Shown piece by piece: positions 1-16,985 of a stretch of 64,000 nt of DNA. Location of the stretch: assembly GCA_903827955.1 (NCBI GenBank), contig CAIKKJ010000034.1, forward strand, positions 2,946 to 66,945, written 5' to 3'. Numbering within the stretch: the stretch's first letter is position 1; each line of letters starts with the position of its first letter. Position numbers and translations under genes: made by a program. The notes beneath the pieces were generated by a model. That model did not search any database, was not told the DNA's origin, and saw nothing but the letters and a program-made list of their open reading frames with translations. The stretch comes from an uncultured Verrucomicrobia subdivision 3 bacterium (GTDB lineage: Bacteria > Verrucomicrobiota > Verrucomicrobiia > Limisphaerales > UBA11358).

Positions 1-164
1 TCACCAGCGAGCGTGCGATTGCGAAGCACCTGCGTCATCGCCTTGTGACCCGCCACACGGCGAAAGCTGCCATCATCCAACAGCACGGGATTAGATTTCG
101 CCCAGGCGTTCCAAGCACGGCGCTGGTCGCGATTCAATTTTTTCCATTCGGTCGATAATTTCAT
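1..164 (-). CDS. hypothetical protein, N-terminal part only (continues beyond window start)
   Basis: ATG at 164-162 overlaps the stop of the upstream portal gene (ATGA at 161-164). Frame is open to position 1 (MKLSTEWKKLNRDQRRAWNAWAKSNPVLLDDG...). No family recognised. Confidence 0.4.
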   Translation of the reverse strand, partial: MKLSTEWKKLNRDQRRAWNAWAKSNPVLLDDGSFRRVAGHKAMTQVLRNRTLAG

Positions 165-1747
165 GGCGTCGTTTGTGGTTGTGCCGGAGGCGTTGCTACG
201 GGCGGGGTAGTGCCAGCATTAGGAAGACCCCCGGTCTGTTTCTCCTGACCGTTTTGAAAATTGCCCGTGCGGCTCGCACTGGGTTGTCCAGCTTTGACGA
301 GATTCTTTTCTTCATCATCCGTGCGTCCAGTGGGCAGGACTTCACCTTTACGGAAGAGATCAAACATGGTGGCCTGAGAGATGGCTCCAGCCTGCCAGGC
401 CGAGACGATGGCAGTGAGTTCCAGACTGGTCAGACCTTTGGCGGTGAAGTCAGTATTGATCTGGAGCAGGACGAGAGATTCACTGATGTCTTCGGGATAC
501 TGTTCAGTGGAGTTCCACCAATAGACCCAGCGAAGGACTTGGCTGATGGAGTCAGAGACAGACAAAGCCAGTGTCATCAAGATGCTATTCTCACCAGCTT
601 GACGGAGTTCAATGGCATCAGCAGTTTCACCGACACGTTTGGTGTCTTCCAGCATCCGGGAGCCGAGGACAGCCATGAGCCGTTCATCACGGTTTTGAGC
701 ATTCTCAAAGGTGGACAGACCATGACCTTTGAATTCAAGGAAGCCGGCGACAGCACCGACCGTGTCCGAGACCCAAGCCGTGCTGCTGCCGATGCGTAGC
801 TCCGAAGTTTTATCAAAGCCAGCGACCCAAGCGGTAGGCAGAGCAGTGAAGTGCAAGCCATGCTTGTAGTCAGCATCCAGACGGTAGTGATCCAGATTGA
901 CGGAGATGATGTCAGCCAGCGGCATCTTGTCCACGTCGGGCAGTGCGTTGCGTGGACCATGAAAGACAAAGGGAATCAGCGGCAGCGTTTTGCCCAGGCG
1001 GAGCGGCACACGGCTTTCCACCAGCGTCCATTTGGTCTTGGCTTGGCTGGCCTTTTGGCCGGGCCAGAAATTACCCATCCAAGAGGATTGGCTGTTCGCA
1101 CGGTGGCCGTCCGCAAGGACTTGCCAGACTTCGACAACGTAACGAGTGCTACCATCGGGCAGCACTTCCAACTTCAGCACGCGCACCGTTTCCGTAATTT
1201 TCACGGCGAACGGATCAGCATCGTCGGGACGTTCCACCATTTCACGGAGCGCCACCATCGTAACCACGTTGCGGCCATTGATGCGGGCAGCTTGCCAATT
1301 CAAAATATCCTCGGCGGCATAGCGGACAACATAAGCACGAGATTCACCATCGGCCTGCCAATCAATCAGCGTGCCACAGCGACCCACAGCAAGGACTTCA
1401 CCGACGACACCCTTGCAGAAAGTGAAGAGCGACGTGCCCATCAAATCCACGTCATCGGTGAAGACACGCAAGGCACCACCGACACCAGCATGGCGGTCAG
1501 GAAGTTTCACTTCGGGATCACGACGAAAGAGCAAACCGAGGAAGCCATCACAGGTGCGCGACGTGGCATTAAAGAAACAAGCACGGGATTTGTAGCCGAG
1601 ATAATCGTCATCCGTTTGGGAATCCAGACGAGGGAGATACATGATGCCACCAAGTTTCACGGCATCTTCACCAGCGATGACATCACGGGCGCGAAGCCAG
1701 GCAGGCAGGCTTGCGTCGTAATCAGGATGTGTCGAGTTCGCTGGCAC
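161..1747 (-). CDS. phage portal protein (DUF4055-like portal family), copy 1
   Basis: 528-aa ORF with GTG start. Roughly 55-60% identical by eye over its full length to ORF 14035-15558, which sits in portal-scaffold-capsid order. Shared blocks: STHPDYDAS..AW.RARDV.AGEDAVK, HYRL.ADYKHG.HFTALPTAWV.GFDK, SAWQAGAISQ.TM. Family name is from memory, not searched. Confidence 0.75.
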   Translation of the reverse strand: MPANSTHPDYDASLPAWLRARDVIAGEDAVKLGGIMYLPRLDSQTDDDYLGYKSRACFFNATSRTCDGFLGLLFRRDPEVKLPDRHAGVGGALRVFTDDVDLMGTSLFTFCKGVVGEVLAVGRCGTLIDWQADGESRAYVVRYAAEDILNWQAARINGRNVVTMVALREMVERPDDADPFAVKITETVRVLKLEVLPDGSTRYVVEVWQVLADGHRANSQSSWMGNFWPGQKASQAKTKWTLVESRVPLRLGKTLPLIPFVFHGPRNALPDVDKMPLADIISVNLDHYRLDADYKHGLHFTALPTAWVAGFDKTSELRIGSSTAWVSDTVGAVAGFLEFKGHGLSTFENAQNRDERLMAVLGSRMLEDTKRVGETADAIELRQAGENSILMTLALSVSDSISQVLRWVYWWNSTEQYPEDISESLVLLQINTDFTAKGLTSLELTAIVSAWQAGAISQATMFDLFRKGEVLPTGRTDDEEKNLVKAGQPSASRTGNFQNGQEKQTGGLPNAGTTPPVATPPAQPQTTP

Positions 1748-1920: not shown

Positions 1921-2330
1921 AAAGTTAGTTCGCTGCGCTCAACAAAAATATCAGTTCGCGCTTTGCTCTGCGTCGCGCTCAACAATGACGAATCGCGCTC
2001 AAGTTCACGGTTTCCATTGTTCACGTTGTGCGGAGGTTTTATTGCTCGCTCTGCTCGGAGAATTGAGCCGCACATCAGGCGCGCACGCGGACGCCTGACG
2101 CTCATGCTCGGCAGTCCAGCGGCAGCCCGCTAAAGCGGTCTGCCACTGGCCATGCCGAGCACCGGCACGCCTTCATCGGCTCACGAGTGCCAACTTACGG
2201 CGTGCCTTTCGCTCCATCGCGTGCGCGTAGCACGGTTCAGGTTCGCGAATGTTAACGGCGCGCTTCATCATTCAGGTTCGCCACGCAACGGCGCGCTGGC
2301 AGGCATCGAACCCTCGTCGCTTCGCTCCTC
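1921..2330. repeat. copy A of a three-copy structured non-coding element (candidate ncRNA or att-associated element)
   Basis: Colinear with 4348-4850 and 16986-17388. Starts AAAGTTAGTTCGC. Contains paired segments 2075-2081/2092-2098, 2106-2113/2153-2160, 2116-2125/2140-2149, 2127-2130/2135-2138 and 2164-2171/2199-2206. No conserved ORF. Confidence 0.8.
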
Positions 2331-2395
2331 GACTGTGGTAAATGTATTCGCCGCACATTATGCGGCGATTAAGGCCCCAATTCACCGCACGCATC

Positions 2396-2426
2396 ACTTG
2401 ACTGATAACTTGACTGACACTTGACT
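2396..2426 (+). promoter_or_regulatory. three direct repeats of ACTTGACT (starts 2396, 2408, 2419)
   Basis: Period is 11-12 bp and each unit contains the -35-like hexamer TTGACT. Located between repeat copy A and the HEPN gene. Function (operator, iteron or promoter) is not determinable from sequence. Confidence 0.35.
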
Positions 2427-2555
2427 CATCTTTCTTCGGCTGACGGCGTGACCATATTGCCGCCAGCGATGGTTTCTGTTGCAGACATCATCGGTTTCCG
2501 TGATTCTGTGCCTGACCATAAAACTTTTCGGCTGAAGTTAGCGGGTGATCCATTT

Positions 2556-3095
2556 ATGTCGCGTGCATCCAACACATTTCTCGAAGCCATCAAGGACGCG
2601 GAAATCCTGCTCGCACAATTCGATGCCATCAACACGAAGCCGCCACCGCCCCACGCCGAGGTTCTAAAACGCGCCGGACTCATCATGGCTCTTACCGCCT
2701 GGGAAACTTACGTCGAAGACCGGGCTGCTGAAGCGCTGGAAGAACGCATCAAGGCTTTGTCTGGCAGTCCTTTTGCGGATTTGATCAAAAAGAAATTCCA
2801 GAAAGATTTGAAGCGCTTGAACAATCCCAACTCCACCAAGACCTGCAATTTGTTCATGGACTATTTGGGCATGGATATCGCGCAGCATTGGACCTGGACC
2901 AACATGGACGTGAAGATGGTGAAGCAGCGGCTCGACGACCTGCTTGCGAAGCGTGGCAGCGCGGTGCATCGCTCCAAGGCCGCGGCCGCCAGCCCTCAGA
3001 ATGGTCATTTGGTGAAGCGCGAGGAACTCGACAAGGGCATCAAGTTTTTGAAGACGCTGGTGGAGCGAAGTGAAAAGGCGTTCACTTCCGCCTGA
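2556..3095 (+). CDS. HEPN-domain protein (RiboL-PSP-HEPN-like)
   Basis: ORF is open from TTG 2421, but third-position GC rises only after ATG 2556. KRGSAVHRS fits the HEPN Rx4-6H motif. The WETYVEDR helix resembles RiboL-PSP-type HEPN proteins (recollection). Confidence 0.55.
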   Translation: MSRASNTFLEAIKDAEILLAQFDAINTKPPPPHAEVLKRAGLIMALTAWETYVEDRAAEALEERIKALSGSPFADLIKKKFQKDLKRLNNPNSTKTCNLFMDYLGMDIAQHWTWTNMDVKMVKQRLDDLLAKRGSAVHRSKAAAASPQNGHLVKREELDKGIKFLKTLVERSEKAFTSA

Positions 3096-4257
3096 CTTCA
3101 CTCAAGCTTTCGCCGGGCGTCAGGTGCGCCGGCTCTTCGAGGATGTCCAGCAGGGCATTGGCGCAATACACGCGACCACGTTTAGCGTCACCGACTTGCT
3201 TCACGATTTTCAACCGTTCCAGCCGTTCGATGGCGCGTTGCGCCGTGGTAAAGGCAAACCCCAGTTTTTCCGCCGCACCCTTCGCGGTGATGAACGGATT
3301 CGAGGCCAGCAGTTCCACCACGCGCAGCGGCGCGTGGGTGGAGTCGCCGGAGACTGTTTTCTGCCACTCGGCCAGCAGGGCGTTCATGCGGGTCGCCCGG
3401 CTCAAGGCGTCTTCCGACATGCGGGCCACGCCGAGCAGGAAGTATTCGAGCCATTCATTCCATTCGCCCCGCTCGCTGACACCCCGAAGCCCTTCGTAAT
3501 AATCGCGACGCGCCTCTTCAAAAAATGCTGAAAGATACAGCAGCGGTGTCGGCAGGATGCCGCGTTCGATCAGAAAGAGCGTGATGAGCAAACGCCCCAC
3601 GCGGCCATTGCCGTCAAGGAATGGATGAATGGCTTCGAATTGGTAGTGTGCCAGCGCAACGGTCACCAGTGGCGGCAGATCGGAGTCATGCACAAACTTT
3701 TCCCACGCCGCCAGGCAGGGCTCGATTTCAGCCGGTGGTGGCGGCACAAACGAGGCTGTCTCCGGCGTGCTGCCCGGTTTGCCGATCCAGTTCTGGATTT
3801 TGCGGAAGCGTCCGGGCATGGCCCGTTCGCCGCTGACACCGGTCATGAGTTTTTCATGCAGCTCCCGGATGATGCGGATGCACAGCGGCAGATCCTTCAG
3901 GCGCTTGATGCCATGTTCCAGCGCGATGACGTAGTTTCCCACTTCCCGCAAATCTTCGGGACTGCGTTCCACGACCGCGCCGGCTTCCGCCGCCAGCATT
4001 TCGCCGAGCGTCGCCTGTGTCCCTTCAATCTTGCTCGATAGCACGGCTTCCCGTTTTACGAATGGACGCATCAGCACATGCGGATTCGGCAGACGACCGC
4101 CTTCCCCCGCCAGCTTCCCAACCAGACGATCCGCCTCCGACAACACCCGCATCAGCCGCGGAGTCCAGATGATCTTCGGCGGCAAGGGTGCCGGCACAAA
4201 GGCGGCATATTTGCCCAGCGGCACTTTGCGTCCAGGAATGTTTAATTTGCTGGCCAT
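3082..4257 (-). CDS. Fic family protein (AMPylase-type, with N-terminal inhibitory motif and C-terminal wHTH-like tail)
   Basis: HPFLDGNGRVGRLL matches the Fic motif HxFx(D/E)GNGRxxR. SSKIEG matches the inhibitory (S/T)xxxE(G/N) motif. ATG 4257 (MASKLNIPG...) is preferred over the ORF opening at 4302. The 3' end overlaps the HEPN gene by 14 nt, convergently. Confidence 0.85.
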   Translation of the reverse strand: MASKLNIPGRKVPLGKYAAFVPAPLPPKIIWTPRLMRVLSEADRLVGKLAGEGGRLPNPHVLMRPFVKREAVLSSKIEGTQATLGEMLAAEAGAVVERSPEDLREVGNYVIALEHGIKRLKDLPLCIRIIRELHEKLMTGVSGERAMPGRFRKIQNWIGKPGSTPETASFVPPPPAEIEPCLAAWEKFVHDSDLPPLVTVALAHYQFEAIHPFLDGNGRVGRLLITLFLIERGILPTPLLYLSAFFEEARRDYYEGLRGVSERGEWNEWLEYFLLGVARMSEDALSRATRMNALLAEWQKTVSGDSTHAPLRVVELLASNPFITAKGAAEKLGFAFTTAQRAIERLERLKIVKQVGDAKRGRVYCANALLDILEEPAHLTPGESLSEVRRK

Positions 4258-4273
4258 AACGTTGCTTTCGGTC

Positions 4274-4302
4274 GTGATAATAGCACAACCTGCTATTATC
4301 AC
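4274..4302. promoter_or_regulatory. perfect 12-bp inverted repeat GTGATAATAGCA-caacc-TGCTATTATCAC upstream of fic
   Basis: Read directly from the sequence. Lies 17 nt upstream of the fic ATG (4257). Operator-like geometry. Confidence 0.5.
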
Positions 4303-4347
4303 AAAAGCACAAATACGCTAATAGCGGGATTCCTTGTTTTCACGGCT

Positions 4348-4850
4348 AAAATTGAGTTCGCTGCGCTCGACAGAATTTAAGTTCGCGCTGCACTTCGCTC
4401 GCGTGCTCAACAGGAGAACACGAACGCGCTCGGATTCACGGTCTCCACGCTCGAACGTTGTGCGGAGTAATGTTAGATCGCTCCGCTCACAGAATTGTCC
4501 CGCACATCAGGCGCGTGCGCGGACGCCTGACGCTCATGCTGGCGGCGGCGGCTAACGCCACCGCTACGCCAGCACCGGGCCGCCTTCACAGGTTTACGAA
4601 TGGTTTCTCACGGCGGCCCTTTCGCTTCCGCGCGCACGCGTCGAACGTCGCAGGTCATCGAACGGTTTCCGCGCGATCCAACCATTCGGGTTGGCGGATG
4701 ATTTAAGCGCGCGGCCAGGCGGGGAAAAGTTAGTGGATTGCTGACTCGTCGCTGTCGCTCCTCGCGGGGGGCGAACGCGCACTGCGTTTGCGGTCGCCTT
4801 TTTGTTTTCAGAGGCCGCGAGGCTTCGCCACGGCCAAGACACAGCAATAT
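4348..4850. repeat. copy B of the three-copy structured non-coding element
   Basis: Starts AAAATTGAGTTCGC. Paired segments: 4460-4465/4500-4505, 4507-4513/4524-4530, 4538-4552/4557-4573, 4577-4584/4612-4619, 4628-4635/4707-4714. Shares an extra 3' block (CGCGAGGCTTCGCC...CAGCAATA) with copy C only. Confidence 0.8.
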
Positions 4851-6020
4851 CACGCCCAGGCCGGCGGCTTGGGCGTGCCGGCCATGCAACAGTTCCCGGC
4901 TGTCACAGAGCGGACACTTGCGCTCGTGCCTCGCGCCAAGTATCCGCACTGTTCGGCCCGCGCCCGTGACGGACTCGTCAGTTTGCGCCCAAGCTGCCCG
5001 CCGGCTGTTATTGATGTCACGCACCACCAAAGCGATGGAACTTGCCATGTTGGTCAGCTCACAAATCTCCCCGTCCCCTGGTCTCATTTGATCCAGCCAA
5101 GCCCGCAAATTATCATGAACGGGCACAATTCGACGACTGGCCGTCTTTGATTTGGTGACGCGCACTACCACGTAATCTTTTGCCAATTGCAGGTCCGCCC
5201 ACTCCAGCCGTTGGAGTTCCGCATGGCGCACGCCCGCAAAAGCCCCGATCACCATGAATGGCTTAATCCGCTCCGGCGTGAAGCAAAGAATTTCAACCAG
5301 CTCTGCCGGCGTGAAAAATTCGGTTTCCGTCGGCGGCTCTTTGATCGCCGGCACCGCGCATAATTCGTCATGGTCCCGGGGCAAATACCGCCGCCGCATG
5401 GCGTATATGAATAATGAATTGATGGCCTTGCGCAGGTTGTTTTGCGAACACGCCCCCACACCTAGTCCCCGCAGCCACTCATTAATTTCAGGCCCGCGAA
5501 TATCGGTGATGTTCCCCTTGAACCGCTTTGTGAATTGTCCCAAGGCATGGCGCATGGACTTGATATAGCTGTCGGTCAGCAACGCCTCGTCTTTTGAATT
5601 CAGCAACTCCTCCACCACGTCCGCGACGGGCATTTTCAATCGGCCCGGTGCCCACTCCAGAAAGTAATCCACAGCCTCGTGCAAATGCACTGTGCCCAAT
5701 TTCTTCATGGCCTCCGCATACTCCATCGCCGCCGACTGGACACTCACGCCGAGCGGATCCAGATAGAACCGTGCCGCTTTATAGTCCAGCCGGTCGTTGG
5801 GACTTAATTCGAGCACGAGCCCCTCCTGCTTGTCCAATTTACCAGCTACAAATCTGGCCTCTTTTTTAGCTTTTTCAAAATCAGAAAAAACCGTCCGCTT
5901 GCGCATCCTGCCCAGATAATAACTGACAAAATAATCCACCCGTCCCTTATTCATGCAGCGATAGATTTTAACCTGCACGGAGCCTTTTTGGATCACGACT
6001 GGAAATGTTTCATCGTCCAT
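4608..6020 (-). CDS. tyrosine recombinase/integrase, probably 3'-truncated (reading frame runs into repeat copy B)
   Basis: ATG 6020 (MDDETFPVVIQKG...). Catalytic Arg box AFAGVRHAELQRLEWADL and beta-hairpin Lys (VTKSKTASRRIVPV) are present. No HxxR...GH...Y block follows. The last ~90 codons are antisense to repeat copy B and look non-protein-like. Confidence 0.6.
   Translation of the reverse strand: MDDETFPVVIQKGSVQVKIYRCMNKGRVDYFVSYYLGRMRKRTVFSDFEKAKKEARFVAGKLDKQEGLVLELSPNDRLDYKAARFYLDPLGVSVQSAAMEYAEAMKKLGTVHLHEAVDYFLEWAPGRLKMPVADVVEELLNSKDEALLTDSYIKSMRHALGQFTKRFKGNITDIRGPEINEWLRGLGVGACSQNNLRKAINSLFIYAMRRRYLPRDHDELCAVPAIKEPPTETEFFTPAELVEILCFTPERIKPFMVIGAFAGVRHAELQRLEWADLQLAKDYVVVRVTKSKTASRRIVPVHDNLRAWLDQMRPGDGEICELTNMASSIALVVRDINNSRRAAWAQTDESVTGAGRTVRILGARHERKCPLCDSRELLHGRHAQAAGLGVILLCLGRGEASRPLKTKRRPQTQCAFAPREERQRRVSNPLTFPRLAARLNHPPTRMVGSRGNRSMTCDVRRVRAEAKGPP
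4770..4808 (+). terminator. candidate intrinsic terminator inside copy B
   Basis: GGCGAACGC (4770-4778) pairs with GCGGTCGCC (4790-4798) with one mismatch, followed by TTTTTGTTTT. This segment is an insertion specific to copy B. Confidence 0.45.
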
Positions 6021-6150
6021 GCTTGATTTTACAACGCCGCAACCTCTTTTGCAGCCTGTCCCCAGCACTGGGGACAAGACGAAAATTCCCGCTGTGTTAA
6101 TCTAAAGTCGTTGGGAGTAGTGACCCAACCGAAAAACAAGTGTTGAAGAA

Positions 6151-6443: not shown

Positions 6444-7514
6444 TCAAAAGTGAAACTCCGGTTCCGGCGGCGATCCTTTCCGCCGCTTTGGCACCTTGAG
6501 CTTTTCCGCCTCCGCTTTCCAGCGGGCGATCATCTTCTGGATCTGCCCGCACTGGTAACGCATCCGCAGTAAATCATCCATCAACTCGCGCCGTATCTGC
6601 CCGGCCAGCGTCTCATGATCGCTGCGGCGGGAAAAATCCCACGCCGGTTTCCTGCGCTGCTGGGTGATCTGCCGTTTGATTTCGCGCAAGGAAGTTTTCA
6701 ATTGCGCCGTGATCCGTTGCAGCAGCGAGGCGCTGGTGTTCGCGGTGGTGCCGCTTTCACCAATCTCGCAAAGCGTGAGAATGACTTCCAGTTGCTCCGC
6801 GTCGCCCGCTTCGTAGGCAATCTGCGCCTCATGCCACCATTCGGTCTTCTGTGCCGTCATTTCCTGCTGACTGTCCGGATGCAATTGGCGCACCAGCTTT
6901 CGATAAAGTTCCTTGAGCCGTTTGGACGCATGCGGCGGTGGCATTGGCTCGCCCGGCGGTTCGTCCTCGGGACCGAGATAGTCTCGGGGATGCGCATCCG
7001 CCCCGAAACGACGATGGAATTCTTTCTTAATTTTCTCCAGCAGGGGATCCTCGTCGAAGTCTTCAGATTCCGGTCCCGACCCAAAGGCATCCCGCTTCCC
7101 TTCCGCATTGTCGCCGGCGGGCGGGGGAGGCGACGAGCCGGGGTTTTCACGGCGATCCATTACCCGCTGATAGGCCCGCGCGTCGGAAAACCCGCCGAAC
7201 TGGGCCTCATAATCGACCTGTTCGATGAGCAGACTATCCCTTTCCATCTGCAGATTAAGTTCCCGGAGTTCCGTGAGCAGCGCTCCAAAATGACTGTGCA
7301 TCCAGCGCATGAACTGCGGCTCATCCGTCTGGTGAAATTGGTCGAGCACACTCCGCGATTTTGCCAGATCGCGCAACGCCTTCTCGTAGTCCTTCTTGAT
7401 CTTTTTCCGGATGCCCGTGCCATCCACCCGCACCATCGCGCGGCAATGAATGGCCGGTTTGGCATCATCAACGGCTTGGCTGTTGATCGGTTTTCTAGTC
7501 GCGCGGCGTGGCAT
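6444..7514 (-). CDS. J-domain-like protein
   Basis: 356 aa. KELYRKLVRQLHPDSQQE contains the HPD tripeptide in a J-domain-like helix context. The rest is charged and coiled-coil-like. Start not verified. Confidence 0.45.
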   Translation of the reverse strand: MPRRATRKPINSQAVDDAKPAIHCRAMVRVDGTGIRKKIKKDYEKALRDLAKSRSVLDQFHQTDEPQFMRWMHSHFGALLTELRELNLQMERDSLLIEQVDYEAQFGGFSDARAYQRVMDRRENPGSSPPPPAGDNAEGKRDAFGSGPESEDFDEDPLLEKIKKEFHRRFGADAHPRDYLGPEDEPPGEPMPPPHASKRLKELYRKLVRQLHPDSQQEMTAQKTEWWHEAQIAYEAGDAEQLEVILTLCEIGESGTTANTSASLLQRITAQLKTSLREIKRQITQQRRKPAWDFSRRSDHETLAGQIRRELMDDLLRMRYQCGQIQKMIARWKAEAEKLKVPKRRKGSPPEPEFHF

Positions 7515-7658: not shown

Positions 7659-9326
7659 TCAGCCTTTCAGCAACTTCAGCAATCGCTTCTTGTCCTTCTG
7701 ATTCTTCTTGCCCGTCATACCCTCGATAATTTTCCGCATCTCCGCTTTCTGTTTATCCGCCTCGGCCTCGGTTGCAAGTGGCGCCGCCACCGACACGACC
7801 TTTTCTTCCTCCGCCCCATAGGTCAGCAGCGCCGGCATTGCCTTGTTCAGCGCCGTTCGGAACGCCTCGCGCCCCGGCTGGAAATAATGTTTCAGCACAA
7901 TGTCAGTCGTCTTGTGCCCTGTCACCTTCTGCACCAGTTCCAGCGCCACCCCGGCCGTCAGCGCCAGCGTCACCCACGTCACGCGGAAGCTGTGGAAATC
8001 CCGCACGCTCGCCGATCGCAAGCCATGTTTCCGTTCCACATACAAACCGGCTTTTTCCATGCCGTCTTTCACGCTGTCGCCTTTGTTCGCGTGGCTGGAG
8101 CCGCGCACAATCAGGCACCCGATGGCCTGTTCAATCTCGTTGAGATAACCCGAGACGCTGCCTTTGCTCACATTGACCGCCGCCATTACAGATTGGATGT
8201 TGTTACCATCCATGTAGTGCCGGAACACCATCGCCATCCGGGATCGTTTCTCGCCTTCCGGCAACGCCGCGATGTATTTCTCGCCTCGCTCCCGCGCCAG
8301 CGCGTCGGAAACTTCCGGCAACGCTTTCGTTTCTTCCCCCGCCTCCACTGGTTTTCTGAGCCCCACCGCCAGAATCTTTTTCACGCGCCAGGTGATGCCA
8401 TCCGGGTTTTCATCATACATCTCCGCTTGGTCAGGAAAAACATAACCGGTGAGTTTCGGCCCTGCCTCTTTTGCCAGCTTTTTCAGCTCCGCTGCCAGCA
8501 TGGGGAAAATGGGGATGCTAACGGTCTGACCGGTCTTCGAGGTTTTTACCGTGATGAAATGGTTTTTCAAATCCACATCCTTCCATTCCAGCAGACAACA
8601 ATCCCCGCGCCGCATGGCGGTGCACATTCCCGTGATGATGATCGGCCGAATGAAATCATCGTCCTTCGCCGCCTCATTGATTGCCCCCAGTTCTTCCGGC
8701 GAGAATGGCTGGCGAAACACAGTTTCCGTTTCCTTCGTCGGTGTGTCGGCAAAATGGTTGATGGCGCCCGCCGGCAGCAGATGCTTAAAAGTTGCCCGTA
8801 GCAGCTTGAGCGTGTCATTCCAGGTTTTGCCCGTGACGTGCCGCCCAGCCTCCTCGTCCAGAAAAGACCGGGCCATCGTTCCCGTAACGAAGGCGATTTC
8901 GACCACCTTGGGATTTTTCTTCTGCACGAATTCTACAAACCGGTTTAAGGTGGATTCGCACTGCTTCGCGTAGCGGGCATTCGGCGCTCGTCGCCGCGCA
9001 ATCTTCCCCCATTCCGCCGCTAGGTTTTCCAACTTCACCGACTTGATGGTTTCTCCAGTCTCATGCTCATACAATTTCTTTATCAAACGCACCGCCCCCT
9101 GTTTTGAGCGCGCCTCCTCGACGATTTGATTCAGCTTCGCTTGGGCGGCAACGCGCGAACATTCAAACGCCGTGTCGCCCGCTTCTTTCAGCGATTGGGA
9201 TTGCGGAGGCGTGCCGGCGATTTTAACGCCGAGATTGGCGCAGAATCGTTTGCCATTAATTTCATAACGGCCATACCAGAAGGGACGCAGTTGGCCGCTT
9301 AATTTCCATCGCAATTCGAGGGGCAT
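7659..9326 (-). CDS. tyrosine recombinase/integrase (phage integrase family) with a long insertion in the catalytic domain
   Basis: Catalytic signature is complete: R (TAMRRGDCCLLEW), K (VKTSKTGQTV), HSFRVTW, TGHKT, KHYF. A ~150-aa insert with an HTH-like segment lies between the K and HxxR boxes. Confidence 0.85.
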   Translation of the reverse strand: MPLELRWKLSGQLRPFWYGRYEINGKRFCANLGVKIAGTPPQSQSLKEAGDTAFECSRVAAQAKLNQIVEEARSKQGAVRLIKKLYEHETGETIKSVKLENLAAEWGKIARRRAPNARYAKQCESTLNRFVEFVQKKNPKVVEIAFVTGTMARSFLDEEAGRHVTGKTWNDTLKLLRATFKHLLPAGAINHFADTPTKETETVFRQPFSPEELGAINEAAKDDDFIRPIIITGMCTAMRRGDCCLLEWKDVDLKNHFITVKTSKTGQTVSIPIFPMLAAELKKLAKEAGPKLTGYVFPDQAEMYDENPDGITWRVKKILAVGLRKPVEAGEETKALPEVSDALARERGEKYIAALPEGEKRSRMAMVFRHYMDGNNIQSVMAAVNVSKGSVSGYLNEIEQAIGCLIVRGSSHANKGDSVKDGMEKAGLYVERKHGLRSASVRDFHSFRVTWVTLALTAGVALELVQKVTGHKTTDIVLKHYFQPGREAFRTALNKAMPALLTYGAEEEKVVSVAAPLATEAEADKQKAEMRKIIEGMTGKKNQKDKKRLLKLLKG

Positions 9327-9358: not shown

Positions 9359-9464
9359 AAAACATACAGCAAAACCCCGAACCGATTCAAGGAAAAAACC
9401 AACCAAACCACCAACCATAAGCCCTAAGCTGACACAAAAAGCCATATAAAGCCCATATTTTGCG

Positions 9465-9522
9465 TAAGCTCGTCAGGCTCATAACCTGAAGGTCGTTGGT
9501 TCAAATCCAGCCCCCGCAACCA
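9465..9522 (+). tRNA. tRNA-Met (CAT) 3' fragment: anticodon arm, variable loop, T arm, acceptor 3' strand and CCA; the 5' acceptor strand and D arm are missing
   Basis: Anticodon stem TCAGG/CCTGA (9473-77/9485-89), loop CTCATAA. T arm GTTGG-TTCAAAT-CCAGC (9495-9511). CCCCGCA-A-CCA ends at 9522. The required 5' strand TGCGGGG is absent upstream. Confidence 0.65.
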
Positions 9523-15695: not shown

Positions 15696-16727
15696 TCACG
15701 GATGCACGAGACGAAAGAATTTATTTCCAGTCGAGACAGGAATCGTGACGGTGACGGTGGAAGCATTGCTGCTGATGTTGCCGGTGTAGGCAGTCCAGTT
15801 GGTAGAGCCAAGATTCGTGGTTTGTTGCAGCGAGAAGCCTGATGCTCCCGAAGGCCAGGACAGTGAGAGGTTGGTTCCATTCGAGACGATTCCAGATAAA
15901 GGCGGTGAGACGACCGGCATCGGTTGACCATCCACTTTGGCACGGAGGACAGCAGCGGTGTATGGCGACAGAGACGAAAAGAATGTATATCCGGTGATGG
16001 TTTGAAGTTGGTTGACCGAGACGAGATAGTTTGTCCAAGGTGCAGACCGGATTCCGGCGATGTTCGGGATGTTGACGGCGATGACACGGGTTGCAGTCGT
16101 GATACGATTGGTTGCCATGTCAGTTCCGTTGGTGACGATGACGATGATTTTCCAGACGTTCGACGGAATATAGACCAGACCAGCAGCATTGATTTGATTC
16201 GTCCCGAATCCACTTGGCCCACAGGTTATCAAGACTTCATTTCCCTGTGAGGCAATCGTCCGACAGTAGGTTTCAAGATTTGCCCACACACCCTGATTGT
16301 TGTCCGGTGTCTGCGGAATGATGTTCGACATGAAGAATACCAGGTCGTTGACTTCGACGCTGACAGTTCGATCTCCAGATGGACACATGTGTCCACGGTC
16401 ATATCCCGATCCACTGTAATCCGTGGGTTTGACCTCATAAAAACTTGATGGCAAGTTCGTGTCCAATAAGAAATTTCCACGTCCACTTGAGCCTACGTCG
16501 TCAGTCGTTAAGTCCCAGCTTGCCCAATTTGGTTCCCGAAGATTGTCGTTGTAGTCTAGGGCTTCGGCGGCGCGTTGAATCAGATAGTGACTGTGGTTAT
16601 TCGTGTCAGACGTGGCGTTGCTGGGATTGCCAAGTTGCATTTGAAATTCGGTCCCGATTTTGGCGTGAGCAGAAAAGACGTTGATGGCAAAGAGAAGCAC
16701 GCTGGCGGTGAGCCAGCTTTTCGTCAT
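15696..16727 (-). CDS. secreted DNA/RNA non-specific endonuclease (Serratia NucA / DRGH family) with C-terminal beta-sandwich-like domain
   Basis: SGYDRGHMCPSGDR carries the DRGH active-site motif and NIIPQ..DNN follows. Signal peptide MTKSWLTASVLLFAINVFSAHA from ATG 16727. GC is visibly lower than in the neighbours. Confidence 0.8.
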   Translation of the reverse strand: MTKSWLTASVLLFAINVFSAHAKIGTEFQMQLGNPSNATSDTNNHSHYLIQRAAEALDYNDNLREPNWASWDLTTDDVGSSGRGNFLLDTNLPSSFYEVKPTDYSGSGYDRGHMCPSGDRTVSVEVNDLVFFMSNIIPQTPDNNQGVWANLETYCRTIASQGNEVLITCGPSGFGTNQINAAGLVYIPSNVWKIIVIVTNGTDMATNRITTATRVIAVNIPNIAGIRSAPWTNYLVSVNQLQTITGYTFFSSLSPYTAAVLRAKVDGQPMPVVSPPLSGIVSNGTNLSLSWPSGASGFSLQQTTNLGSTNWTAYTGNISSNASTVTVTIPVSTGNKFFRLVHP

Positions 16728-16985
16728 TTTGTTTGTGGCGTTTCGGTTCAAGCTGCGAACGATTAGGATAGCACAATTCGCGATGTTGTCTTTAAGCATT
16801 TCGACGATTCAATTTTCGGCAGCAATCGAGAAGTTTGGTTTAAGATTTTTTCATCTTTTGACCCCGGTAATTTTTTTGCGTGTGATAATTCGTGAGACTT
16901 TTATTTTTCGACACGGGCGACCAGATGAAGTTGTGTGTCGTGGGCAATGTGAATGTTTGTGGTAATTCGGATGCGCTCGAAAGAC

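What the first reader, a model, noticed from the sequence alone, without database searches (positions are those of the whole stretch)
2556..4257. HEPN + Fic convergent, overlapping two-gene cassette filling the 2-kb gap between repeat copies A and B
The only genes between copies A and B are a HEPN-motif protein (Rx4H: RGSAVH) and a Fic protein with an intact HPFLDGNGRVGR active site and an SSKIEG inhibitory motif. The two genes converge and their 3' ends overlap by 14 nt (3082-3095). Both domains are typical of toxin or abortive-infection modules, and their location between att-like repeats is typical of defence cargo. I do not know a described system that pairs these two proteins specifically. 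No MNT, antitoxin-like small ORF or DNA-modification gene is present.
Basis: partly seen in the sequence, partly recalled or inferred. Interest (0 to 1): 0.6.

Follow-up and report, generated by a model that had tools for sequence, protein, structure and literature searches.

The report
SoFic and HEPN cargo gene pair
Two real toxin-type genes, a known single-gene anti-phage enzyme (SoFic-type Fic) and a stand-alone HEPN RNase-like gene, sit tail to tail in the cargo slot of a small phage-like island; they travel together only in a narrow group of relatives and are most likely two independent defence genes, not a new two-gene system.

Summary
The HEPN gene (2556-3095, +) and the Fic gene (3082-4257, -) are real and under purifying selection. 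They carry the stated motifs and overlap by 14 nt.

- **Fic:** it matches the PADLOC SoFic model over its full length (E 1.6e-115). SoFic is a known single-gene defence. This copy has its own conserved promoter and palindrome.
- **HEPN:** it belongs to Pfam RiboL-PSP-HEPN. This roughly 179-aa family has no conserved neighbour.
- **Pairing by HEPN identity:** Fic is adjacent in 9 of 9 loci at 80% identity or more (four lineages besides the window, with two non-orthologous Fic types). It is adjacent in 0 of 128 loci below 80%.
- **Genome counts:** Fic homologues occur in 127 of 401 genomes sampled from the phylum. The HEPN occurs in 1 of 401.
- **Decay:** in two lineages the HEPN is broken, by a nonsense codon or an IS truncation, while Fic stays intact.
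- **Flanking repeats:** they are not att sites. They are diverged copies of a roughly 400-nt non-coding module that follows the portal gene in four capsid islands, and the slot beside it holds variable cargo.

Most likely these are two autonomous defence genes stacked in a hotspot. A Fic-controls-HEPN pairing is not excluded (about 0.1). The scan has noted Fic next to HEPN-like genes in other genomes before.

The parts
2556..3095 (+). HEPN_RiboL-PSP family gene, 179 aa, stand-alone predicted RNase
   Evidence: Pfam PF18735 at E 4.6e-22, 79.3 bits against a cut-off of 28.4. There are 1592 homologues, all of about 179 aa. dN/dS is 0.04-0.13. The AF2 model has pLDDT 89.3 and is all-alpha.
2952..2969 (+). 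Rx4H catalytic motif (RGSAVH, R133...H138)
   Evidence: R133, G134 and H138 are invariant in 76 aligned homologues.
3082..4257 (-). SoFic-type class II Fic AMPylase gene, 391 aa (Fic_N + Fic + C-terminal wHTH)
   Evidence: PADLOC SoFic PDLC03963 at E 1.6e-115 over model positions 5-359 of 361. Pfam Fic_N and Fic. PDB SoFic entries 3eqx, 3zcn and 9tc4, and 9vjc, match at E 1e-33 to 1e-39. phrog_5978 at E 2.5e-84. dN/dS is about 0.06.
3592..3627 (-). Fic active-site motif HPFLDGNGRVGR (residues 211-222)
   Evidence: It fits HxFx(D/E)GNGRxxR.
4021..4038 (-). N-terminal inhibitory-helix motif SSKIEG (residues 74-79), the mark of class II Fic
   Evidence: It fits (S/T)xxxE(G/N). Fic classes are as described in PMC12249575.
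3082..3095 (.). 14-nt overlap of the two 3' ends; hairpins at the junction
   Evidence: Sequence. The fold of 3050-3140 has z = -2.26. A terminator-like site lies on the minus strand at 3093-3076. The overlap itself is not conserved in relatives.
4274..4302 (-). Perfect 12-bp palindrome GTGATAATAGCA-N5-TGCTATTATCAC overlapping a sigma-70-like promoter of Fic (-35 at 4304-4299, -10 at 4282-4277); a probable autoregulatory operator
   Evidence: The roughly 115 nt upstream of Fic are about 90% identical among cassettes, against 79% for the coding DNA. A T-to-A change is mirrored on both arms of the palindrome. SoFic binds the 100 bp upstream of its own start codon (bioRxiv 10.64898/2026.07.09.737422).
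2395..2430 (+). Three direct TTGACT repeats about 11 nt apart, upstream of HEPN; conserved in the Fic1-type cassettes L102 and L009; marks the left edge of the shared cassette
2337..2390 (+). Orphan palindromic operator of the other (DUF4172-Fic) type: TTCGCCGCA-N5-TGCGGCGA plus a half-site
   Evidence: 85% identical to the region upstream of the Fic in L089. The same palindrome family, or a clear variant of it, lies upstream of most of the 20 DUF4172-Fic homologues and of L089. No gene of that type was found in this genome.
1921..2330 (+). Repeat copy A of the roughly 400-nt non-coding island module
4349..4730 (+). Repeat copy B of the same module
161..1747 (-). Portal protein (DUF4055) of capsid island I; the cargo slot begins after it
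   Evidence: Pfam PF13264 at E 1.6e-36. There are four such portals in the genome, each followed by cargo and then the repeat.

Best explanation
The interval holds two self-sufficient defence or toxin genes stacked in the variable cargo slot of a small capsid-encoding, phage-like island. It is not an interdependent two-gene system.

Gene 1 is a SoFic-type class II Fic enzyme. By analogy with characterised SoFic proteins, it is kept off by its N-terminal inhibitory helix. As a dimer it probably represses its own promoter through the conserved palindrome at 4274-4302. On phage infection it AMPylates a host protein and stops translation and growth. EF-Tu is the target reported for Shewanella SoFic.

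Gene 2 is a stand-alone RiboL-PSP-type HEPN protein with an invariant Rx4H site. It is predicted to be an RNase that acts on its own, as it does in more than a hundred other genomes where its neighbours are unrelated genes.

The two were joined tail to tail in a recent ancestor and have since moved as a roughly 2-kb cassette (about 2395-4356) among Verrucomicrobial genomes.

Shown here: family membership, motifs, selection, gene order, distribution, the island context and HEPN decay in relatives. Inferred: enzymatic activities, anti-phage role and autoregulation.
For: **Fic is a known autonomous system.**
- It matches the PADLOC SoFic model over its full length.
- SoFic is described as a single-protein defence (PMC12249575).
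- Homologues occur in 127 of 401 genomes sampled from the phylum, while the HEPN occurs in 1 of 401.
- The 11 nearest Fic homologues and 20 homologues of the second Fic type have no HEPN next door.
- The Fic has its own promoter and operator, conserved at about 90%. This matches the reported binding of SoFic to its own promoter.

**HEPN is autonomous.**
- 77 upstream and 77 downstream neighbours in 80 genomes share no family. They are a mix of NERD, SIR2, TIR, Mrr, SLATT, UvrD, integrases and other genes.
- Fic is adjacent in 0 of 128 loci below 80% identity.
- Family members also occur on 6 viral contigs without Fic.

**The pair is not co-dependent.**
- The HEPN has a TAG stop at codon 132, just before the catalytic motif, in three assemblies of the L009 lineage.
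- It is 5'-truncated next to an IS transposase in L105.
- Fic stays intact in the L009 lineage. In L105 only its C-terminal 272 residues lie on the contig, and they are unbroken.

**The site is a cargo hotspot.**
- Four DUF4055 portals in this genome are each followed by 0-2 kb of different cargo and then the repeat.
- The cargo is Endonuclease_NS, a PADLOC PDC-S01 ATPase, an unknown 245-aa protein, or this cassette.
- In L092 and L010 the HEPN alone sits between portal and repeat.

**The genes are separate transcription units.** They are convergent.
Against: - Every HEPN relative at 82% identity or more that has enough flanking DNA carries a convergent Fic 6-30 nt away (9 of 9 loci, four lineages besides the window, in different genomic contexts).
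- In one lineage (L089-L091) the Fic is a different subfamily, only 27% identical. A Fic has therefore been placed beside this HEPN at least twice.
- A relic of that second Fic type's operator also lies next to the HEPN in the window.
- AMPylation is the known way HEPN toxins are silenced, by MNT (PMC7641770), so a Fic partner would make mechanistic sense.
Confidence: 0.6

Rival explanations
1. The pair is a type VII-like toxin-antitoxin or abortive-infection module. The HEPN RNase is the toxin. The Fic enzyme does the job that MNT does in HepT/MntA, silencing the RNase by AMPylating it near the active site until infection disturbs the balance.
For: - Fic is adjacent in 9 of 9 close HEPN relatives, with two non-orthologous Fic types.
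- MNT neutralises HEPN by AMPylation (PMC7641770, PMC11586414).
- A nearly invariant Ser lies two residues after the catalytic His, where HepT has the modified Tyr.
- The nearest solved folds are HepT toxins, although weakly.
- Loss of the toxin with retention of the antitoxin, as in L009 and L105, is common in toxin-antitoxin decay.
Against: - More than 120 HEPN family members at 49-77% identity have neither Fic nor any conserved partner, so the protein does not need an antidote.
- The Ser is conserved in those loci too.
- The genes are convergent and not an operon, and Fic has its own conserved autoregulated promoter.
- SoFic-type proteins are toxic effectors in their own right.
- Fic homologues are common without the HEPN.
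Confidence: 0.1
2. The two genes are independent in biochemistry but coupled in use. Both shut down translation, so they form a two-pronged cassette that selection keeps together, possibly with cross-talk through overlapping convergent transcripts.
For: - The cassette is kept as a unit at about 79% DNA identity in unrelated genomic contexts.
- The convergent ends are always 30 nt apart or less, leaving no room for separate terminators.
- SoFic AMPylates EF-Tu and inhibits translation.
- HEPN-plus-Doc/Fic neighbourhoods were proposed as multi-level defence for PrrC/RloC loci (PMC3710099).
Against: - The HEPN was lost twice within the small clade while Fic was kept.
- The overlap itself is not conserved.
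- The association does not exist outside the clade.
- Persistence of two adjacent genes over this divergence can be simple linkage.
Confidence: 0.17
3. The cassette serves the island and not the host. It acts as an addiction or stabilisation module, or as a weapon against competing phages and helper phages, for the capsid island that carries it.
For: - It lies between the portal gene and the terminal non-coding module of a capsid island.
- Sister islands carry other nuclease or ATPase cargo in the same slot.
- SoFic-type and HEPN family members occur on phage genomes.
Against: - The same cassette sits outside any recognisable island in L118, L102 and L105.
- Nothing here distinguishes a benefit to the host from a benefit to the island.
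Confidence: 0.08

Closest known systems
SoFic single-gene anti-phage system (class II Fic with C-terminal wHTH; Shewanella oneidensis SoFic and E. coli EcSofic; PADLOC PDLC03963)
   Same: - The architecture is the same: an N-terminal helix with an (S/T)xxxE(G/N) inhibitory motif, a Fic core with HxFxDGNGRxxR, and a C-terminal wHTH.
- The PADLOC model matches over its full length, and solved SoFic structures match.
- A conserved palindrome lies in the 50 nt upstream of the start codon. This fits the reported binding of SoFic to its own promoter.
   Different: - It is not an orthologue of the Shewanella protein: the NCBIfam equivalog model scores 169 bits against a cut-off of 550.
- No small co-directional AS1-like antitoxin gene lies downstream. 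The downstream neighbour is the convergent HEPN gene.
- Activity and target are untested.
RiboL-PSP-HEPN family (Anantharaman et al. 2013, PMC3710099; Pfam PF18735)
   Same: The Pfam match is above the cut-off. The Rx4H motif is conserved. The family is bacterial and tied to defence or mobile contexts.
   Different: The family was described from fusions to endoRNase L-PSP and an operon with ParB. This clade is a stand-alone protein of about 179 aa with no fusion and no conserved partner. It matches no PADLOC, NCBIfam or PHROG model.
HepT/MntA (HEPN-MNT) type VII toxin-antitoxin systems
   Same: A small HEPN protein with Rx4H sits next to an AMP-transferase. HepT structures are the top-ranked fold neighbours, although not significantly.
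   Different: - The transferase is a Fic fold, not MNT.
- The genes are convergent, not an operon.
- The residue two positions after the catalytic His is Ser, not the AMPylated Tyr.
- The pairing is absent from almost the whole HEPN family.
Defence hotspots of prophages and satellites (P2/P4-type hotspots; capsid-forming PICI-like islands)
   Same: A fixed slot between conserved island features, here portal and non-coding module, is filled with different defence-type cargo in sister elements.
   Different: - The islands are Verrucomicrobial.
- The conserved boundary is a roughly 400-nt non-coding module, not a protein gene.
- I did not establish the island type here; earlier notes of this scan propose cfPICI-like.
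PrrC/RloC-type HEPN loci with Doc/Fic toxins (multi-level defence neighbourhoods, PMC3710099)
   Same: A HEPN RNase and a Fic/Doc protein modifier are encoded side by side in mobile defence loci.
   Different: There is no ABC-ATPase fusion and no restriction-modification genes. The HEPN family is different.

Membership tests
SoFic (single-gene defence system; class II Fic-wHTH) | Fic core motif HxFx(D/E)GNGRxxR | tested here: met
   HPFLDGNGRVGR at residues 211-222. Pfam Fic at E 1.8e-21.
SoFic (single-gene defence system; class II Fic-wHTH) | Inhibitory motif (S/T)xxxE(G/N) on an N-terminal helix of the same protein (class II) | tested here: met
   SSKIEG at residues 74-79, inside the Fic_N match at residues 37-117.
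SoFic (single-gene defence system; class II Fic-wHTH) | C-terminal winged-helix DNA-binding domain | tested here: met
   HTH_24 at residues 311-353, E 0.0017, below the Pfam cut-off. However, the PADLOC SoFic model covers residues 16-374, and PDB 9vjc aligns over residues 26-371.
SoFic (single-gene defence system; class II Fic-wHTH) | Full-length match to the detection model used by PADLOC | tested here: met
   PDLC03963 at E 1.6e-115, 384 bits, model positions 5-359 of 361.
SoFic (single-gene defence system; class II Fic-wHTH) | Orthology to S. oneidensis SoFic (NCBIfam equivalog NF046030, cut-off 550 bits) | tested here: not met
   169 bits. It belongs to the same family and architecture but is not an equivalog.
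SoFic (single-gene defence system; class II Fic-wHTH) | Protects against phage as a single gene | not testable with these tools
   Known for other members (PMC12249575). Untested for this protein.
HEPN superfamily, RiboL-PSP-HEPN family | Match to PF18735 above the gathering score | tested here: met
   79.3 bits against 28.4, over residues 14-176.
HEPN superfamily, RiboL-PSP-HEPN family | Conserved Rx4-6H motif | tested here: met
   R133 and H138 are invariant in 76 sequences.
HEPN superfamily, RiboL-PSP-HEPN family | All-alpha HEPN fold | tested here: inconclusive
   The AF2 model has pLDDT 89.3 and is all helical. Foldseek found no PDB match with E below 0.1. The top ranks are HepT toxins with TM 0.44-0.57. 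A profile search of PDB sequences found nothing.
HEPN superfamily, RiboL-PSP-HEPN family | Fusion to endoRNase L-PSP or an operon with ParB, as the family was first described | tested here: not met
   It is a stand-alone 179-aa protein. No ParB appears among 154 neighbours.
HepT/MntA type VII toxin-antitoxin | Adjacent MNT nucleotidyltransferase gene in the same operon | tested here: not met
   The only neighbour in the interval is a convergent Fic. No MNT family appears in the neighbour tallies.
HepT/MntA type VII toxin-antitoxin | Tyr two residues after the catalytic His (Rx4HxY), the AMPylation site | tested here: not met
   The sequence is RGSAVHRS, and Ser140 is nearly invariant.
   Fic is adjacent in 9 of 9 loci at 80% HEPN identity or more, but in 0 of 9 at 60-80% and 0 of 119 below 60%. 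No HEPN lies beside 31 Fic homologues. Fic occurs in 127 of 401 genomes and the HEPN in 1 of 401.
   The HEPN has a nonsense codon in L009, L118 and L119 and is truncated next to an IS in L105. Fic is intact in L009.
att-flanked integrated cassette | Short, near-identical direct repeats made by site-specific integration | tested here: not met
   The repeats are about 400 nt long and 70-84% identical. There are 7-8 dispersed copies, each next to an island portal.

The most novel reading that the evidence does not exclude
In this Verrucomicrobial clade a Fic AMPylase has taken over the role that MNT plays in HepT/MntA systems. It would hold a RiboL-PSP-type HEPN RNase in check by AMPylating it. 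That would make a new kind of type VII-like toxin-antitoxin or abortive-infection pair, assembled at least twice with non-orthologous Fic enzymes.
Probability: 0.1. Interest if true: 0.75.

Novelty: new member of a known kind. Interest (0 to 1): 0.3.

Why it matters
As it stands, the locus adds one more example of known defence genes stacked in a mobile-element hotspot. It also points to a widespread HEPN clade of about 179 aa as an untested candidate single-gene defence: the protein search returned 1592 homologues, and no defence-database model matches it.

The finding also gives a concrete operator candidate for a SoFic-type enzyme, which is useful for the open question of how these enzymes are kept silent.

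If the minority reading were true, it would show that two unrelated AMP-transferase folds can serve as antidotes to HEPN RNases. That would widen the type VII toxin-antitoxin concept.

Tried and rejected
- **A conserved partner of the HEPN.** I clustered all ORFs within 3.5 kb in 80 loci and tallied Pfam families for 77 upstream and 77 downstream neighbours. No shared family emerged. The 'conserved' antisense ORFs inside the HEPN gene are a by-product of gene conservation.
- **A hidden HEPN next to Fic homologues.** A profile built from the HEPN alignment found nothing beside 11 plus 20 Fic homologues. Pfam tallies of 61 neighbours listed no HEPN family among the 25 families shown.
- **The repeats as att sites.** Rejected: they are too long, too diverged and multi-copy.
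- **Rfam and tRNA scans of 1-12 kb.** These gave only a sub-threshold tRNA fragment at 9461-9519.
- **The Fic2-type operator as a general feature upstream of HEPN genes.** Rejected. A clear copy is found only in the window, with a degenerate trace in L102. Its only other genomic match lies inside a hydrolase gene.
- **A shared operator between Fic and HEPN.** The Fic palindrome and the TTGACT repeats upstream of HEPN are unrelated.
- **Base composition.** It does not set the cassette apart.
- **Solved-structure search by sequence for the HEPN.** It found nothing.
- **The 350-aa 'gene' after the HEPN in L092.** It is most likely not a gene. Four colinear pieces of the non-coding repeat lie within it, and it matches no family.
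Full report
**1. Observation**

The two ORFs are as described.
- The HEPN gene runs 2556-3095 on the + strand and encodes 179 aa. RGSAVH lies at residues 133-138.
- The Fic gene runs 4257-3082 on the - strand and encodes 391 aa. HPFLDGNGRVGR lies at residues 211-222 and SSKIEG at residues 74-79.
- The stop codons lie at 3093-3095 and 3082-3084, so the 3' ends overlap by 14 nt.
- Homologues of both proteins start at the same methionines.
- Pairwise dN/dS is 0.04-0.13 for the HEPN gene and about 0.06 for Fic. Both are real genes under selection.
- Nothing else credible is encoded between repeat A (1921-2330) and repeat B (4349-4730).

**2. What the two proteins are**

*Fic.*
- It has Pfam Fic_N and Fic domains and a weak C-terminal winged-helix match.
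- It matches the PADLOC SoFic model nearly end to end (E 1.6e-115).
- It matches a full-length phage protein family, phrog_5978, and the solved SoFic structures.
- It scores 169 bits on the NCBIfam SoFic equivalog model, whose cut-off is 550. It is therefore a family member and not an orthologue of the Shewanella protein.
- SoFic is described as a class II Fic that protects against phage as a single protein. An E. coli member is toxic and has a small downstream antitoxin, AS1 (PMC12249575).
- A 2026 preprint reports that Shewanella SoFic AMPylates EF-Tu, blocks translation, and as a dimer binds the 100 bp upstream of its own start codon (10.64898/2026.07.09.737422).

*HEPN.*
- It matches Pfam RiboL-PSP-HEPN (79 bits against a cut-off of 28).
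- It matches no PADLOC, NCBIfam or PHROG model.
- The protein search returned 1592 homologues, nearly all about 179 aa long.
- R133, G134 and H138 are invariant in 76 aligned homologues.
- An AlphaFold model is confident (pLDDT 89.3) and all-helical.
- Foldseek found no significant PDB match. The top ranks are HepT toxins of HEPN-MNT systems, with TM 0.44-0.57.
- The family was first described from fusions to endoRNase L-PSP and an operon with ParB (PMC3710099). Neither applies here.

**3. Is the pair a system?**

*From the HEPN side.*
- I fetched 80 genome loci, 80 metagenome loci, 6 viral contigs and the contigs of seven close relatives.
- I counted loci with at least 700 nt downstream of the HEPN (the six viral contigs were checked separately and have no Fic). 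A Fic gene starts within 300 nt in:
  - 9 of 9 loci at 80% HEPN identity or more;
  - 0 of 9 loci at 60-80%;
  - 0 of 119 loci below 60%.
- The immediate neighbours in the 80 genome loci share no family. They are a changing set of NERD, SIR2, TIR, SEFIR, Mrr, SLATT, UvrD, RelA/SpoT, integrase and transposase genes. This is the pattern expected of a stand-alone gene in defence islands and mobile elements.

*From the Fic side.*
- Homologues occur in 127 of 401 genomes sampled from the phylum. The second Fic type occurs in 28 of 401.
- The HEPN occurs only in the window's own genome in that sample.
- None of the 31 nearest Fic homologues has a HEPN next door.

**4. The shallow clade**

The nine positive loci fall into four lineages besides the window.
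- L009, L118, L119 and L120, L102, and L105 carry the orthologous Fic (87-89% identical).
- L089-L091 carry a different Fic (DUF4172-Fic, 27% identical), convergent and 30 nt away.
- The genomic contexts differ. They include an IS element and housekeeping genes in L118, ADP-ribosylglycohydrolases in L102, and an IS and a transporter in L105.
- DNA similarity to L009 covers only 2557-4356, so the cassette moves as a unit.
- The HEPN is not kept everywhere. In L009, L118 and L119 it has a TAG stop at codon 132, directly before the catalytic motif, and a TTG in place of the ATG. In L105 it is cut at the 5' end next to an IS transposase.
- Fic remains intact in L009, so Fic does not depend on the HEPN.
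- The 14-nt overlap exists only in the window. Relatives have 6-30 nt gaps.

**5. Regulation**

- The roughly 115 nt upstream of Fic are about 90% identical among cassettes, more than the coding DNA at 79%.
- This region contains a perfect 12-bp palindrome (4274-4302) overlapping a sigma-70-like promoter. A T-to-A change is mirrored on both arms in relatives.
- This fits the published promoter binding of SoFic and marks Fic as a self-contained unit. That the palindrome is an operator is inferred, not shown.
- The HEPN has its own conserved upstream elements. Three TTGACT repeats (2395-2430) are shared with L102 and L009. A block shared with L089 and L096 lies closer to the start codon.

**6. 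Context**

- The genome has four DUF4055 portal genes. Each is followed by 0-2 kb of DNA and then a copy of the roughly 400-nt repeat.
- The DNA in between differs from island to island:
  - an Endonuclease_NS gene in the second island of this window (15696-16799);
  - an AAA_14-DUF4143 ATPase that matches PADLOC candidate PDC-S01 on contig 55;
  - an unknown 245-aa protein on contig 200;
  - in the first island, repeat A followed by the HEPN-Fic cassette and repeat B.
- After repeat C the genes look chromosomal, for example a glycosyl hydrolase.
- In L092 and L010 (HEPN 77% identical) the order is portal, a small ORF, HEPN, then pieces of the repeat, with no Fic.
- In L089, L102 and L009 the repeat or its 5' part follows the Fic.
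- The stable relation is therefore HEPN beside the non-coding module, with Fic genes inserted between them in some lineages.
- The repeats are 70-84% identical and multi-copy, so they are not att sites.
- Earlier notes of this scan read the repeat as a structured non-coding RNA of capsid islands whose end is an insertion hotspot. My counts agree with the hotspot part. I did not test the RNA structure.

**7. An unexplained detail that bears on the pairing**

- At 2337-2390, between repeat A and the HEPN, lies a palindromic element: TTCGCCGCA-N5-TGCGGCGA plus a half-site.
- It is 85% identical to the region just upstream of the second-type Fic in L089.
- The same palindrome family, or a clear variant of it, lies upstream of most of the 20 homologues of that Fic type. 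It is therefore that family's operator.
- This genome has no such Fic gene at E 1e-80 or better. The only other match to the pattern lies inside a hydrolase gene.
- The relic shows that a second-type Fic, or its promoter, was once beside this HEPN too.
- This supports turnover of Fic genes at this spot. It is also the strongest hint that the HEPN-Fic association is not pure chance.

**8. Weighing**

For independence:
- Both families are autonomous almost everywhere.
- SoFic is experimentally sufficient on its own.
- The genes are separate, convergent transcription units.
- The HEPN decayed twice.
- The site is a hotspot.
- Fic genes are very common in this phylum.

For coupling:
- Fic is adjacent in 9 of 9 loci of the close clade.
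- Two Fic types have been juxtaposed to the HEPN, and there is an operator relic.
- There is biochemical precedent: HEPN toxins are silenced by AMPylation by MNT (PMC7641770, PMC11586414).
- HEPN-plus-Doc/Fic neighbourhoods have been noted before (PMC3710099).

The four first-type lineages share one ancestral cassette, so there are only two independent juxtaposition events. My estimates are:
- 0.6 for two independent genes stacked in a hotspot;
- 0.17 for a loosely coupled two-pronged cassette;
- 0.1 for a Fic-controls-HEPN toxin-antitoxin pair;
- 0.08 for an island-serving role.

**9. Earlier notes of the scan**

Other windows were noted with SoFic-type genes beside HEPN or HEPN-like genes. 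One note describes a Fic-wHTH-MNT fusion next to a HepT toxin. These notes are unchecked leads. Most follow-ups also concluded that the genes were independent cassettes. I did not use them as support.

**10. Verdict**

- The reading as a new two-gene system is mostly not supported.
- The locus is a known single-gene defence (SoFic type) plus an uncharacterised but ordinary stand-alone HEPN gene, in the cargo slot of a capsid island.
- Interest is modest. The HEPN clade as a candidate defence gene, the operator candidate and the residual Fic-HEPN question are the parts worth a bench test.

Noticed in passing
window 2337-2390: An orphan palindromic operator of the DUF4172-Fic type (TTCGCCGCA-N5-TGCGGCGA plus a half-site). 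It is 85% identical to the Fic-upstream region of L089, although no such Fic gene was found in this genome. It is better conserved than neutral DNA should be at this divergence (dS about 1.5).
   Followed up: partly
L204-L223 and L089, 20-130 nt upstream of each DUF4172-Fic gene: Most of the 20 second-type Fic homologues, and L089, carry one to three copies of a TTC(G/A)CCGCA-N4-8-TGCGG(C/T)GAA palindrome or a clear variant upstream of the start codon. This is a family-wide candidate autoregulatory operator. I did not find it described in the papers I read.
   Followed up: partly
window 2395-2430; L102 and L009 upstream of the HEPN: Three direct TTGACT repeats about 11 nt apart are conserved upstream of the HEPN gene in the first-type cassettes. 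They are absent from L089 and L096. Their function is unknown.
   Followed up: no
L009:2425-2964, L118:4001-4540, L119:765-1304: The HEPN gene of this lineage has a TAG stop at codon 132, just before the RGDAVH motif, and TTG in place of the ATG start. The change is identical in three assemblies from different projects. It is a recent pseudogene beside an intact Fic.
   Followed up: yes
window 15696-16799; G000 contig 55 (L004:153-1442); contig 200 (L002:734-1471): The slot between portal and repeat in the three sister islands holds an Endonuclease_NS gene, an AAA_14-DUF4143 ATPase matching PADLOC candidate PDC-S01 (E 8.9e-50), and an unknown 245-aa protein.
   Followed up: partly
L092:6671-7723: The called 350-aa gene after the HEPN has no family match. 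It overlaps four colinear pieces of the non-coding repeat, so it is probably not a gene.
   Followed up: partly
window 4608-6077: This integrase-like ORF matches Phage_integrase only weakly (25 bits, below the 27.1 cut-off, N-terminal part of the domain only). Its 3' end runs into repeat B, so it may be degenerate.
   Followed up: no
window 9461-9519: A tRNA-like fragment (Rfam tRNA at 27 bits, just under the gathering score; ARAGORN finds no tRNA) lies next to the second integrase (7659-9326).
   Followed up: no
window 6444-7514: A 356-aa protein with a weak DnaJ-domain match (E 9.7e-05, below the cut-off) lies between the two integrase genes. It has no PADLOC match.
   Followed up: no
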